Virus record (IMG/VR): IMGVR_UViG_2778261446_000009
Span: 1 to 21,912 of that record
Reading direction: 5' to 3' (one strand)
Origin: a virus
Taxonomy: Duplodnaviria > Heunggongvirae > Uroviricota > Caudoviricetes
Length of the DNA: 21,912 nucleotides
Position numbers and translations under genes: made by a program. This document shows positions 3,075 through 3,870 of this stretch, piece by piece (position 1 is the stretch's first letter; each line of letters opens with the position of its first letter). The notes beneath the pieces are model-generated. The model was not told the origin of the DNA and made no database searches. It worked only from the letters and a program-made list of their open reading frames with translations.

Positions 3075-3802
3075 TATGCAACATTACTCCCATGAATCAG
3101 GTGTTGTAGTGCTTTAACACCTTCCGCATTGTAGCGGAATGCTTCCACCTGTTTGCTGGAATGCGCAGATTTATCCAGGAAGAACTTCCCGTACTGCTCA
3201 GTTTTGAGGTTGTTTGCGTTAGCAATGCGACCAATCTTGTTGGCCGTTACTCCAAGCTGCTCTGCAACCTCCCCTGCTGAGTAGTAATGCTCTTCTATTG
3301 CCGGAAGAGGTATTGCATTAAAACCAACGAGCGGGTTGATTATACTTGCTGCCGCTGTCTGCTTTGCCTCAGGCGCAAGATTTGGCATCAGATCGAACAG
3401 ATTGGTAACAGCTTCAACCGTCATTTTCAATGTTCGCGCTTGACGATACTCAACAAGTCCACTCGCTGATTTACCGCTTTTAATGTGCGCTTCTTGCATA
3501 CTTTCAAGTTGGTCTACCAGTGAGCGGCGAACGGCTTTTGACTCGCGAGCGGCAACTCGCAATGCTTGCTTGATTGACATCTCAATGATAACCATCGAAG
3601 TTTTGTTCGCTTTTTGCACTACACTTTTTGTGTAGTGCTCTCCATCCAATTCATCTTCAATTTTCTCGATGAATTTGTTATTACGAACCTCCGGCTCACC
3701 GCACTGTCTACGAGCCTGATTTACCATCTCAAGCAGGCGCTGGCTGTCAATGGTTTTATCCGTGACAACGGATCCGATGTTTGCTACATTCTTAAAAGTC
3801 AT
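3074..3802 (-). CDS. Antirepressor-like protein (242 aa) with a KilA-C/ANT-type C-terminal region; candidate functional analogue of P22 Ant
   Basis: ATG at 3800-3802 is preceded by TAAGGAA (RBS). The tool ORF starts at a TTG at 3889 with no RBS. C-terminal YSAGEVAEQLGVTANKIGRIANANNL...QYGKFF resembles antirepressor C-terminal DNA-binding modules. The assignment is from memory only. Confidence 0.6.
   Translation of the reverse strand: MTFKNVANIGSVVTDKTIDSQRLLEMVNQARRQCGEPEVRNNKFIEKIEDELDGEHYTKSVVQKANKTSMVIIEMSIKQALRVAARESKAVRRSLVDQLESMQEAHIKSGKSASGLVEYRQARTLKMTVEAVTNLFDLMPNLAPEAKQTAAASIINPLVGFNAIPLPAIEEHYYSAGEVAEQLGVTANKIGRIANANNLKTEQYGKFFLDKSAHSSKQVEAFRYNAEGVKALQHLIHGSNVA
3762..3790 (+). promoter_or_regulatory. 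Candidate plus-strand promoter (GTGACA-N17-TACATT) for a sar-like antisense RNA
   Basis: -35-like GTGACA at 3762-3767, 17-nt spacer, -10-like TACATT at 3785-3790. Predicted start near 3797, pointing towards the plus-strand terminator at 3841-3870. Confidence 0.3.
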
Positions 3803-3840
3803 TAGGCATTCCTTATGTGGTAGTAAGGGTGTGACATAGG

Positions 3841-3870
3841 CCGCCAGCAGCACACTGGCGGTTTTCTTTT
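3841..3870 (+). terminator. Plus-strand rho-independent terminator in a minus-strand intergenic region; predicted 3' end of a sar-like antisense RNA
   Basis: CCGCCAG-cagcaca-CTGGCGG followed by TTTTCTTTT. On the minus strand the same hairpin is preceded by the A-run rather than followed by U, so it is plus-strand specific. Confidence 0.6.

What the first reader, a model, noticed from the sequence alone, without database searches (positions are those of the whole stretch)
3762..3870. Candidate sar-like antisense RNA unit covering the antirepressor RBS
A textbook plus-strand intrinsic terminator (CCGCCAG-N7-CTGGCGG-TTTTCTTTT) lies in the intergenic gap between two minus-strand genes. A promoter-like GTGACA-N17-TACATT sits on the plus strand inside the first codons of the downstream antirepressor gene. 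A transcript from about 3797 to 3870 (about 75 nt) would be exactly complementary to that gene's RBS (3806-3811) and start codon (3800-3802). This mirrors the P22 sar RNA, which is about 68 nt and antisense to the ant RBS, but here it is placed before the second antirepressor gene rather than directly after arc.
Basis: partly seen in the sequence, partly recalled or inferred. Interest (0 to 1): 0.65.

Follow-up and report, generated by a model that had tools for sequence, protein, structure and literature searches.

The report
Second sar-type antisense RNA before antirepressor
A P22-like E. coli prophage very probably makes a small (about 72 nt) antisense RNA that covers the ribosome-binding site of its second antirepressor-like gene; it works like the classic P22 sar RNA but is a separate, undescribed sequence family, and a true sar relative sits one gene upstream in the same operon.

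Summary
GTGACA-17-TGcTACATT (3762-3790, + strand) and the hairpin CCGCCAG-N7-CTGGCGG-TTTTCTTTT (3841-3870) lie where stated. Only the RBS is misplaced: AAGGA is at 3810-3814.

Taken alone, the promoter match is near chance. Comparison makes the case:
- 86 of 90 loci carrying a homologue of the downstream gene (59-100% protein identity, several enterobacterial genera) keep the -35, the 17-nt spacing, TGn, the T/A/A/T of the -10, an A at the predicted start, the hairpin and the T run.
- Spacer, loop and the upstream gene vary.
- Synonymous change is suppressed over codons 1-18, which cover the promoter.
- 11 of 22 RNA pairs show compensatory changes.
- The fold is better on the + strand.

The unit matches neither Rfam sar nor a sar model built here. 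That model does find a genuine sar homologue at 4517-4592, before the first antirepressor gene.

Best reading (about 0.78): a cis-antisense RNA, 3797 to about 3868, blocks translation of the second gene. Because the module lies in the late operon, each gene needs its own silencer. No expression data were available. This is a new member of a known kind, of moderate interest.

The parts
3762..3767 (+). -35 hexamer GTGACA of the predicted antisense promoter. It lies in codons 12-14 of the second antirepressor-like gene (ant2).
   Evidence: It is invariant in 26 distinct promoter segments from homologues of 59-100% protein identity, including two third-codon positions, while flanking third positions vary.
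3782..3790 (+). Extended -10, TGc TACATT, in codons 5-7 of ant2.
   Evidence: TG and the T, A, A, T of the hexamer are invariant. The variants are TACATT, TAAATT and TAAAGT. The spacing to the -35 is always 17 nt. The exact 11-mer TTTGCTACAWT occurs only here and at the other unit, 4500-4510.
3797..3870 (+). Predicted antisense RNA of about 72 nt. It starts at A3797 and ends in the U run around 3866-3870. It is complementary to the ant2 mRNA from about -68 to +6.
   Evidence: The start is inferred from the -10 position. A3797 is invariant although it is a third-codon position. MFE -25.1 kcal/mol, z -2.2 to -2.5. The session covariance model R3 finds it in 25 distinct loci. There is no ORF inside it and no Rfam match.
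3798..3835 (+). 5' stem-loop (SL1). It carries the anti-Shine-Dalgarno UCCUU and is closed by GUC/GAC across the start-codon complement.
   Evidence: the same two-hairpin fold is predicted in six divergent variants; helices 1-3 have 7 of 12 pairs with changes on both sides.
3838..3864 (+). Terminator hairpin: 10 pairs, with core arms CCGCCAG/CTGGCGG and a 7-nt loop.
   Evidence: Loop length varies from 5 to 8 nt and loop sequence varies. Stems with compensatory changes are GCCGATAG/CTATCGGC (L085), CCAGCAG/CTGCTGG (L088) and CCGCCAA/TTGGCGG (L087).
3862..3870 (+). U tract of the terminator (TTTTCTTTT). Its end is the boundary of the mobile module.
   Evidence: A T run follows the hairpin in every locus that has the unit, and sequence identity to other loci stops right after it. 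On the minus strand the hairpin is followed by CCTATGTCA, so it is not a terminator for sense transcripts.
3800..3814 (-). Target: the translation initiation region of ant2, with SD AAGGA at 3814-3810 and AUG at 3802-3800.
   Evidence: Read directly.
3074..3802 (-). ant2: a 242-aa antirepressor-like gene, the gene covered by the antisense unit.
   Evidence: phrog_1726 'anti-repressor', E 5e-101. No Pfam or NCBIfam family. Residues 14-106 are 66% identical to the phage P1 immI ant region (E 4e-31). The full length is about 60% identical to 'anti-repressor' genes of Stx2a phages.
3890..4516 (-). ant1: the first antirepressor gene (Bro-N plus P22_AR_C domains), probable start MNIVAKS.
4502..4510 (+). 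Extended -10 (TGc TACAAT) of the upstream sar homologue, inside codons 2-4 of ant1.
   Evidence: It aligns with the P22 Psar sequence TTGCTATACTATTCATG.
4517..4592 (+). Genuine sar homologue ('unit 1'), antisense to the ant1 RBS. It has two hairpins and ends at the 3' end of the arc-like gene.
   Evidence: nhmmer with P22 sar hits the window at 4495-4583, E 0.008, and the reverse search gives E 0.002. Model R1, built from this unit, hits the annotated P22 sar exactly. Model R2 scores it 89.6 bits, E 3e-15. Fold -33.3 kcal/mol, z -6.2, with the same shape as P22 sar. In the family alignment 13 of 20 pairs show compensatory changes.
4590..4763 (-). Arc-like ribbon-helix-helix gene (57 aa), the first gene of the operon.
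   Evidence: Its position matches that of P22 arc.
4813..4841 (-). Pant-like promoter (TTGACT-17-AATAAT) for the arc-like, ant1, ant2, 73-aa operon.
   Evidence: 10 of 12 positions match, the best promoter-like site in the 3 kb scanned.

Best explanation
The unit is a self-contained gene for a small cis-antisense RNA of about 72 nt.

Proposed mechanism:
- A sigma-70 promoter of the extended -10 type lies inside codons 5-14 of ant2 and fires on the + strand.
- Transcription starts at about A3797. It runs across the start-codon and Shine-Dalgarno complements and stops at the intrinsic terminator at 3838-3870, in the gap between the two antirepressor genes.
- The RNA is fully complementary to the ant2 translation initiation region. 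By pairing with it, the RNA blocks ribosome binding and possibly exposes the duplex to RNase III. This holds ant2 translation down whenever the mRNA is made.

Why each gene needs one: the whole module lies on the path of late-operon transcription between the DNA-injection genes and the tailspike gene. Repressing the module's own promoter therefore cannot keep ant2 silent. A per-gene antisense RNA can, and the upstream ant1 gene has its own, a true sar homologue.

Shown here:
- The sequence elements and their conservation pattern.
- Suppressed synonymous change over the promoter.
- Conservation of the RNA fold, and its strand bias.
- Co-inheritance of the unit with ant2.
- Lack of detectable homology to sar.

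Inferred:
- That the promoter fires and the terminator stops.
- That pairing represses translation.
- The late-operon rationale, which rests on what is established for P22 sar.
For: 1. Elements are present and correctly spaced.
2. 86 of 90 loci with an ant2 homologue (the window, 80 viral contigs and 9 genomes of other genera at 59-74% identity) keep GTGACA, a 17-nt spacer, TGn, TAnAnT and 9 nt before CAT. They also keep a hairpin followed by a T run, which an automatic scan scored in 85 and which was read by eye in L090.
3. The conservation pattern is that of a promoter. The hexamers, TG and the +1 A are invariant, including third-codon positions, while the spacer and the region between -10 and +1 vary.
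4. The synonymous difference rate is 0.009 (codons 1-10) to 0.12 (codons 11-20) in sliding 10-codon windows over the first 20 codons. It is 0.07-0.47 in the rest of the gene (mostly 0.15-0.45). The 0.009 is the lowest of all windows, and the rate rises after codon 18, just beyond the -35.
5. All variants fold into the same two hairpins, with z between -2.5 and -4.5. On the model-fitted alignment 96.3% of cells are paired and 11 of 22 pairs have changes on both sides. None of 500 shuffles reaches this, and slid controls give at most 2 such pairs.
6. There is strand bias. The same pairs are 96.3% standard on the + strand RNA and 83.7% on the sense RNA, with 59 G-U cells. The + strand fold is on average 4.3 kcal/mol more stable. 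The U tract is on the + strand only.
7. The unit ends exactly where homology to other loci ends, and it stays with ant2 behind at least five unrelated upstream genes. It is also kept where no convergent gene lies downstream.
8. The layout matches the annotated P22 Psar, sar and terminator, and a true sar homologue in the same operon shares the promoter 11-mer.
9. The late-operon context is supported: the tailspike and injection genes flank the module on the same strand. In P22-like phages ant is also transcribed from Plate, and sar acts on translation (PMC12111858).
Against: - No transcript, start site or termination data exist for this sequence. Everything is inferred from DNA.
- The -35 (GTGACA, 4 of 6) and -10 (TACATT, 4 of 6) are imperfect, and such sites are as frequent as chance in a single sequence.
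- RNAalifold on a plain MAFFT alignment recovered only the terminator and found no compensatory pairs. The covariation in SL1 comes from an alignment fitted to the proposed structure, which leans toward that structure.
- Most loci are closely related, so the independent evidence rests on roughly ten divergent lineages.
- Low synonymous change at a gene's 5' end can also come from translation-initiation constraints, or from recent recombination of a shared boundary segment.
- Homologues in Stx-phage contexts lack the unit, so the gene can exist without it.
- The antirepressor function of ant2 rests on PHROG annotation and partial homology to P1 Ant, not on experiment.
Confidence: 0.78

Rival explanations
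1. The hairpin and T run are only a backstop terminator. It stops plus-strand (antisense) read-through coming from further downstream, for example from the convergent mnt gene at 2581-2838. It thereby protects ant1 and the promoter region from convergent transcription. The promoter-like site inside ant2 is not used, and no dedicated small RNA exists.
For: mnt is on the + strand downstream of ant2. The terminator between them (2825-2846) has a strong T run only on the minus strand, so mnt transcripts may read through. Promoter-like matches alone are at chance level.
Against: The terminator is kept in loci where the gene downstream of ant2 is on the same strand as ant2 and no convergent gene is present: L013, L060, L065 and L079. 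It always travels with ant2. This reading explains neither the invariant -35, TG, -10 and +1 positions at synonymous sites nor the conserved 5' stem-loop.
Confidence: 0.08
2. The conserved structure works in the sense (minus-strand) mRNA. It would be an intercistronic leader whose hairpins sequester the ant2 Shine-Dalgarno, or serve as an RNase III/E processing or stabilising site, uncoupling ant2 expression from ant1. On this reading the conservation in the first codons reflects translation initiation.
For: The complement of any antisense hairpin also forms in the sense RNA, and 83.7% of cells still pair there. In the sense leader CCUUAC pairs with the SD region AUAAGG. Constraints at the 5' end of a CDS are common.
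Against: The fold is systematically better on the + strand: 59 G-U cells become A-C mismatches in the sense RNA, with a mean difference of 4.3 kcal/mol. The T run conserved next to the hairpin has no role upstream of a sense hairpin. Synonymous suppression reaches codon 18 and peaks on the hexamers rather than fading from the AUG, while positions between the hexamers vary. This reading is also compatible with the best explanation, since an antisense RNA and its structured target coexist in P22 (established knowledge: Schaefer and McClure 1997, cited in PMC2629481).
Confidence: 0.07
3. The leader and first codons form a conserved 'linker' that serves homologous recombination between phage modules. 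Alternatively, the palindrome CCGCCAG/CTGGCGG is a protein-binding operator. In both cases the promoter and terminator likeness would be incidental.
For: Homology between loci breaks exactly at the end of the T run, and the segment is nearly identical among many loci whose gene bodies differ by about 10%. The core palindrome is invariant in most loci.
Against: Distant homologues with diverged leaders still keep the hexamers, spacing, hairpin and T run. Loop length varies from 5 to 8 nt, and the arms change in a compensatory way, keeping pairing rather than sequence, in L085, L087 and L088. That fits an RNA hairpin, not an operator of fixed geometry or a plain recombination linker.
Confidence: 0.04

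Closest known systems
P22 sar RNA (Psar, sar and its terminator in immI; Rfam RF00262)
   Same: - Promoter inside the first codons of an antirepressor gene, reading antisense, with a TGc-type extended -10.
- RNA of about 70 nt made of a 5' stem-loop carrying the anti-SD plus a terminator hairpin.
- Fully complementary to the RBS of the gene it sits in front of.
- Located in the immI / 'ant moron' of a P22-like phage, on the path of late transcription (PMC2629481, PMC12111858).
   Different: - No detectable sequence or profile similarity.
- It precedes the second antirepressor-like gene, of a different protein family (P1-Ant-like N-terminus), and not the gene after arc.
- The predicted start lies inside codon 2, so the RNA also covers the AUG.
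- The terminator has a canonical long U tract, whereas P22 sar ends in AACUUU.
- The -35 is well conserved.
The sar homologue in this same window (4517-4592, before ant1)
   Same: - Same strand and same operon.
- Same 11-mer TTTGCTACAWT at the -10.
- Same 8-mer TGACATAG just before the terminator hairpin.
- Same two-hairpin design.
   Different: That unit is recognisably homologous to P22 sar, and the finding is not. The terminator stems are unrelated: GAGGCCCGG...CCGGGCUUC there, against GGCCGCCAG...CUGGCGGUU here. Its start lies just outside the AUG.
Phage P1/P7 c4 antisense RNA controlling icd-ant (immI)
   Same: An antisense-type RNA that keeps an antirepressor silent at the level of translation. 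The ant2 N-terminal domain is 66% identical to P1 Ant.
   Different: c4 is processed from the same transcript as its target and acts on upstream sites through translational coupling with icd (established knowledge). The P1 immI sequence has no promoter-plus-terminator unit at the equivalent place, and there is no Rfam C4 match in the window.
Other short cis-antisense RNAs over a 5' end, such as SymR/symE and lambda OOP/cII
   Same: They share the general design of a constitutive short antisense transcript overlapping a target's translation start or end. Rfam's only weak hit in the region was SymR, and it falls on the upstream sar homologue.
   Different: The SymR hit scores 21.8 bits against a gathering score of 61 (E 0.27). 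It concerns unit 1, not the finding, and I treat it as a resemblance of shape, not as membership.

Membership tests
sar RNA family (P22 sar; Rfam RF00262) | Significant match to the curated Rfam covariance model | tested here: not met
   No match at gathering score in the whole window. No sar match even at E up to 10 in 3500-5000.
sar RNA family (P22 sar; Rfam RF00262) | Match to a broader sar model that recovers both P22 sar and its divergent relatives | tested here: not met
   Model R2 was built from 24 sar-type units, including P22 sar. Run on the window with filters off, it finds 4517-4592 (89.6 bits) but nothing at 3797-3870 at E up to 10. nhmmer in both directions is also negative.
sar RNA family (P22 sar; Rfam RF00262) | Promoter inside the first codons of the antirepressor gene, directed against it | tested here: met
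   The -35 lies in codons 12-14 and the extended -10 in codons 5-7. Both are conserved at synonymous sites. Promoter activity itself was not tested.
sar RNA family (P22 sar; Rfam RF00262) | RNA of about 68-70 nt with a 5' stem-loop and a terminator stem-loop, complementary to the ant RBS | tested here: met
   The predicted RNA is 72 nt with two hairpins in all variants, supported by covariation. It covers the SD at 3810-3814 and the AUG at 3800-3802.
sar RNA family (P22 sar; Rfam RF00262) | Position in the arc-ant intercistronic region | tested here: not met
   The unit lies between ant1 and ant2. The arc-ant1 gap holds the other unit. In all loci examined ant2 follows another antirepressor gene.
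sar RNA family (P22 sar; Rfam RF00262) | Transcript detected, and represses antirepressor synthesis | not testable with these tools
   No expression data were available. No paper describing this RNA turned up in four of the full-text searches.
Intrinsic (Rho-independent) terminators | G+C-rich stem, short loop, and a U tract directly 3' on the transcribed strand | tested here: met
   10-pair stem with 6 G-C pairs, 7-nt loop, TTTTCTTTT. Hairpin dG -14.9 kcal/mol. The T run is conserved in all units. There is no T run on the minus strand.
Sigma-70 extended -10 promoters | TGn directly upstream of a -10 that keeps T-12, A-11 and T-7, with a purine start 6-8 nt downstream | tested here: met
   TGc TACATT, with A3797 seven nt downstream. 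All these positions are invariant in 26 distinct homologous segments. Activity was not tested.
P1/P7 c4 antisense RNA | Match to Rfam C4, processing from the target's own transcript, and upstream a'/b' target sites | tested here: not met
   No Rfam match. The unit is convergent with its target, not co-transcribed. The P1 immI has nothing similar at the equivalent site.

The most novel reading that the evidence does not exclude
Antirepressor genes carried in the late operon of P22-like phages may be portable 'self-silencing cassettes', each with its own built-in antisense RNA gene. The unit here would be an independently evolved second family of such silencers, or one diverged beyond recognition, linked to a P1-Ant-like gene. 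On this reading one operon is controlled by two antisense RNAs, or three in loci such as L078. Made constitutively by a prophage, these RNAs could also act in trans on the matching gene of a superinfecting relative, giving an RNA-based, cassette-specific layer of immunity.
Probability: 0.3. Interest if true: 0.6.

Novelty: new member of a known kind. Interest (0 to 1): 0.45.

Why it matters
P22 sar is a textbook antisense RNA, but only the P22 version of the 'ant moron' has been studied (PMC2629481). This result has several consequences:

- The same device exists in a second, sequence-unrelated form. It is attached to a different antirepressor-like gene and spread over several enterobacterial genera and 77 of 5426 complete E. 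coli genomes.
- One operon can carry one antisense RNA per gene.
- It supplies a ready covariance-model seed for a family absent from Rfam.
- It explains why a stretch of coding sequence shows almost no synonymous change.
- It offers a simple test of the idea that genes embedded in a read-through late operon need post-transcriptional silencers.

The protein has homologues annotated as antirepressors in Stx2a phages. Its control is therefore of some practical interest, although those homologues lack this unit.

Tried and rejected
- Rfam at gathering and at E up to 10 gave nothing for the unit. The only weak hits over it (ctRNA_p42d at 14.9 bits, SgrS at 13.2 bits) are far below their gathering scores and I treat them as chance.
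- Direct alignment to P22 sar showed no similarity.
- nhmmer between the unit, the upstream unit and P22 sar was negative for the finding.
- MAFFT plus RNAalifold on the sar-type units returned no structure, because the alignment was not structure-aware. I replaced it with iterative covariance-model alignment.
- RNAalifold on the first set of unit-2 variants returned only the terminator, without compensatory pairs. More distant homologues were needed.
- A leader peptide was rejected. The uAUG at 3837-3835 opens an 11-codon uORF ending in UAAUG on the ant2 start, but it is absent from L060, L065 and L089.
- A minus-strand promoter for ant2 in the gap was not found.
- The P1 immI and the Stx-phage PA2 homologue were checked for the same unit and do not have it.
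- A PDB profile search for ant2 found nothing usable: best hit E 0.65.
- Pfam and NCBIfam found no family for ant2.
- Schaefer and McClure 1997 (PMC1369469) is not held in the library.
- A translation request on P1 failed because of frame.
- A first chance simulation timed out and was rerun.
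Full report
**Context**

The window is a P22-like (Lederbergvirus) prophage of E. coli. Its closest phage record is Escherichia phage JEP4. The 201 bases around the finding are 100% identical to chromosomal sequence of E. coli KSC207 and AH19B041, and similar sequence occurs in 77 of 5426 complete E. coli genomes.

The finding lies between the DNA-injection genes and the tailspike gene (553-2448; Head_binding domain). This is the position of the P22 immI region, the 'ant moron' (PMC2629481).

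On the minus strand the order is:
- A Pant-like promoter (4841-4813, TTGACT-17-AATAAT).
- A 57-aa ribbon-helix-helix, arc-like gene (4763-4590).
- A first antirepressor gene, ant1, with Bro-N and P22_AR_C domains (4516-3890).
- An 87-nt gap (3889-3803).
- A second gene, ant2 (3802-3074, 242 aa).
- A 73-aa ORF whose start overlaps the ant2 stop.
- A minus-strand terminator (2846-2825).
- The tailspike gene.

On the plus strand there is an S24/LexA-like repressor gene (4863-5504), divergent from the Pant-like promoter, and an mnt homologue (2581-2838).

ant2 has no Pfam or NCBIfam family. It matches phrog_1726 'anti-repressor'. Residues 14-106 are 66% identical to the phage P1 immI ant region, and the full length is about 60% identical to 'anti-repressor' genes of Stx2a phages. 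I therefore call it antirepressor-like. Its function is not proven.

**The observation**

- GTGACA at 3762-3767, followed by a 17-nt spacer.
- TACATT at 3785-3790, preceded by TG at 3782-3783.
- The hairpin CCGCCAG-CAGCACA-CTGGCGG at 3841-3861, extendable to 10 pairs over 3838-3864.
- TTTTCTTTT at 3862-3870.
- The minus-strand AUG at 3802-3800.

The Shine-Dalgarno is AAGGA at 3814-3810, not at 3806-3811.

A transcript from A3797 to the U tract is about 72 nt. It folds into a 5' stem-loop plus the terminator (-25.1 kcal/mol, z about -2.2 to -2.5).

Taken alone this is weak evidence:
- Promoter-like sites are as common as in shuffled sequence.
- I estimate about an 8% chance of an extended -10-like site within 100 nt upstream of a given terminator (site density).
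- The strict conjunction occurs once in the window, and in 1% of simulated windows.

**Comparative evidence**

I collected 80 viral contigs carrying an ant2 homologue (70-100% identity). I added nine bacterial genomes of other genera: Serratia, Citrobacter, Kluyvera, Buttiauxella, Erwinia, Dryocola and others, at 59-74% identity.

In 86 of the 90 loci the unit is kept. It consists of GTGACA, exactly 17 nt, TGn, TAnAnT (TACATT, TAAATT or TAAAGT), 9 nt, then CAT, and a hairpin followed by a T run. In one of these, L090, the hairpin and T run were read by eye rather than scored automatically. The four exceptions (L067-L070) have a different N-terminus and leader, like the Stx-phage homologue PA2.

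Four observations argue that the unit is functional and is read on the plus strand.

1. *Promoter footprint inside coding sequence.*
   - Across 26 distinct segments, all six -35 positions are invariant. So are the TG, the T, A, A, T of the -10, and the A at the predicted start. Several of these are third-codon positions. The spacer and the stretch between -10 and +1 vary freely.
   - Leu or Val at codon 6 is always TTA or GTA, the codons that give the T-12 and A-11 of the -10.
   - The synonymous difference rate among 53 distinct genes is 0.009 for codons 1-10 and stays at or below 0.12 through codon 20. It then rises to 0.28-0.45. The first window is the lowest of the whole gene.
2. *Conserved RNA fold.*
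   - Six divergent variants each fold into the same two hairpins.
   - On an alignment of 25 units made with a covariance model of the unit (R3), 96.3% of cells pair and 11 of 22 pairs show changes on both sides.
   - No shuffle out of 500 reaches these values, and slid controls give at most 2 such pairs.
   - Clear compensatory terminator stems are GCCGATAG/CTATCGGC (Kluyvera, L085), CCAGCAG/CTGCTGG (L088) and CCGCCAA/TTGGCGG (L087).
   - Loop length ranges from 5 to 8 nt, which argues against a protein operator.
   - Caveat: this alignment was fitted to the structure. A plain MAFFT/RNAalifold run on closer relatives found only the invariant terminator.
3. *Strand bias.*
   - The same pairs are 96.3% standard in the plus-strand RNA but 83.7% in the sense RNA, because 59 cells are G-U.
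   - The plus-strand fold is on average 4.3 kcal/mol more stable.
   - The U tract exists only on the plus strand.
4. *Modularity.*
   - Identity between loci stops exactly at the end of the T run.
   - The unit stays with ant2 behind at least five unrelated upstream genes.
   - It also stays where no convergent gene lies downstream of ant2. This argues against a mere backstop for mnt read-through.

**A second unit, and the relation to sar**

In P22, Psar lies in the first codons of ant. sar (70 nt) starts next to the AUG and ends at a hairpin at the end of arc.

The window has such a unit in that very place. TGc TACAAT lies at 4502-4510, in codons 2-4 of ant1. The predicted start is at G4517. 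A 5' stem-loop is followed by a large hairpin (4548-4582) and then UUCACUAUUUUUAUU.

Its sequence resembles P22 sar: GUUAGUUU...UUACUGACAUAGAGGCCC against GUUGGUUU...UUACUGACAACCGAAGCCC. The evidence for homology is:
- nhmmer links them in both directions (E 0.008 and 0.002), through many intermediates.
- A model built from this unit hits the annotated P22 sar end to end (30.1 bits).
- The family alignment has 13 of 20 pairs with compensatory changes.

There is one unit per gene.

The finding itself is not a detectable member of that family:
- Rfam sar does not match.
- The broad sar model R2, run without filters, scores unit 1 at 89.6 bits and finds nothing at 3797-3870 at E up to 10.
- The unit's own model R3 hits neither P22 sar nor unit 1.

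The two units of the window do share TTTGCTACAWT at the promoter. These are its only two exact occurrences in 21.9 kb. They also share TGACATAG just before the terminator. Very distant common ancestry, or a shared functional motif, therefore remains open.

**Mechanism**

Best explanation (confidence about 0.78): a constitutive extended -10 promoter inside ant2 makes an RNA of about 72 nt. The RNA is perfectly complementary to the ant2 leader, Shine-Dalgarno and AUG, and it blocks translation initiation, as sar does for P22 ant.

The rationale is inferred from P22. The module lies on the route of late transcription to the tailspike gene, and ant is transcribed from Plate as well as from Pant (PMC12111858). 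Protein repressors of the module's own promoter cannot silence the genes in late transcripts. A per-gene antisense RNA can. Loci such as L078 carry three antirepressor cassettes and three antisense units, which fits this view.

The DNA-level anatomy and its evolutionary constraint are shown. Promoter activity, termination, pairing and repression are inferred.

**Rivals**

- A backstop terminator without a dedicated RNA (0.08).
- A sense-strand leader structure (0.07, and compatible with the main reading).
- A recombination linker or a protein operator (0.04).

Each fails to explain at least two of these: the promoter footprint, the plus-strand bias, the compensatory stems, and the context independence.

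**Novelty**

[quoted passage not shown] Four full-text searches found no description of this RNA. RefSeq annotates nothing in the gap.

It is a new family that works like a known one, so I rate it a new member of a known kind. It is of moderate interest, and is chiefly useful as a clean, testable example and as a seed for an RNA family model.

Noticed in passing
window 4500-4592 (+ strand): A genuine, divergent homologue of P22 sar lies between the arc-like gene and the first antirepressor gene. It has an extended -10 TGcTACAAT, a predicted start at G4517, and two hairpins. Rfam does not recognise it and gives only a weak SymR hit there.
   Followed up: yes
window 3780-3790 and 4500-4510; 3832-3839 and 4541-4548: The two antisense units share the 11-mer TTTGCTACAWT at the promoter and the 8-mer TGACATAG just 5' of the terminator hairpin, in the same order. 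Yet no profile method links them. Possible explanations are distant common ancestry, local gene conversion or a shared functional motif.
   Followed up: partly
window 4863-5504 (+ strand): A 213-aa HTH plus Peptidase_S24 (LexA/C2-like, potentially self-cleaving) repressor gene sits divergently from the Pant-like promoter, where P22 has mnt. This suggests that the antirepressor operon is held off by an SOS-cleavable repressor.
   Followed up: no
window 2581-2838 (+ strand); compare L078 3965-5645: An mnt homologue sits alone, convergent with the ant operon and directly upstream of the tailspike gene. In L078 the same mnt is followed by a complete P22-type arc-orf-ant with its own sar. The window therefore seems to keep only the mnt remnant of a second immI, and what Mnt controls here is unclear.
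   Followed up: partly
L017 5253-5324, L018 5298-5371, L039 4659-4733, L078 4669-4742: Some related loci carry a third sar-type unit in front of a third antirepressor gene, giving up to three antisense units per immI region.
   Followed up: partly
window 3072-3076 (- strand): The ant2 stop and the start of the 73-aa ORF (phrog_4977, unknown function) overlap as TAATG. This suggests translational coupling, so the antisense RNA may control both genes.
   Followed up: no
window 553-2448 (- strand): The tailspike combines the P22-type head-binding domain with a GDSL/SGNH lipase-esterase domain instead of an endorhamnosidase-type domain. This may indicate a receptor-modifying esterase.
   Followed up: no
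L067-L070 and L116 (phage PA2) upstream of the ant2 homologue: In Stx-phage-type contexts the homologous gene has a different N-terminus and leader. That leader has other hairpins (for example CCCCGCGAGTGCGAGG followed by ATTCTTATT) and a TACATT 7 nt before the start-codon complement. Whether this is yet another antisense unit was not examined.
   Followed up: no
window 3835-3837 (- strand AUG) to 3802: An 11-codon upstream ORF (MSHPYYHIRNA) ends in UAAUG on the ant2 start codon. It is not conserved in divergent homologues, so it is probably not meaningful.
   Followed up: yes
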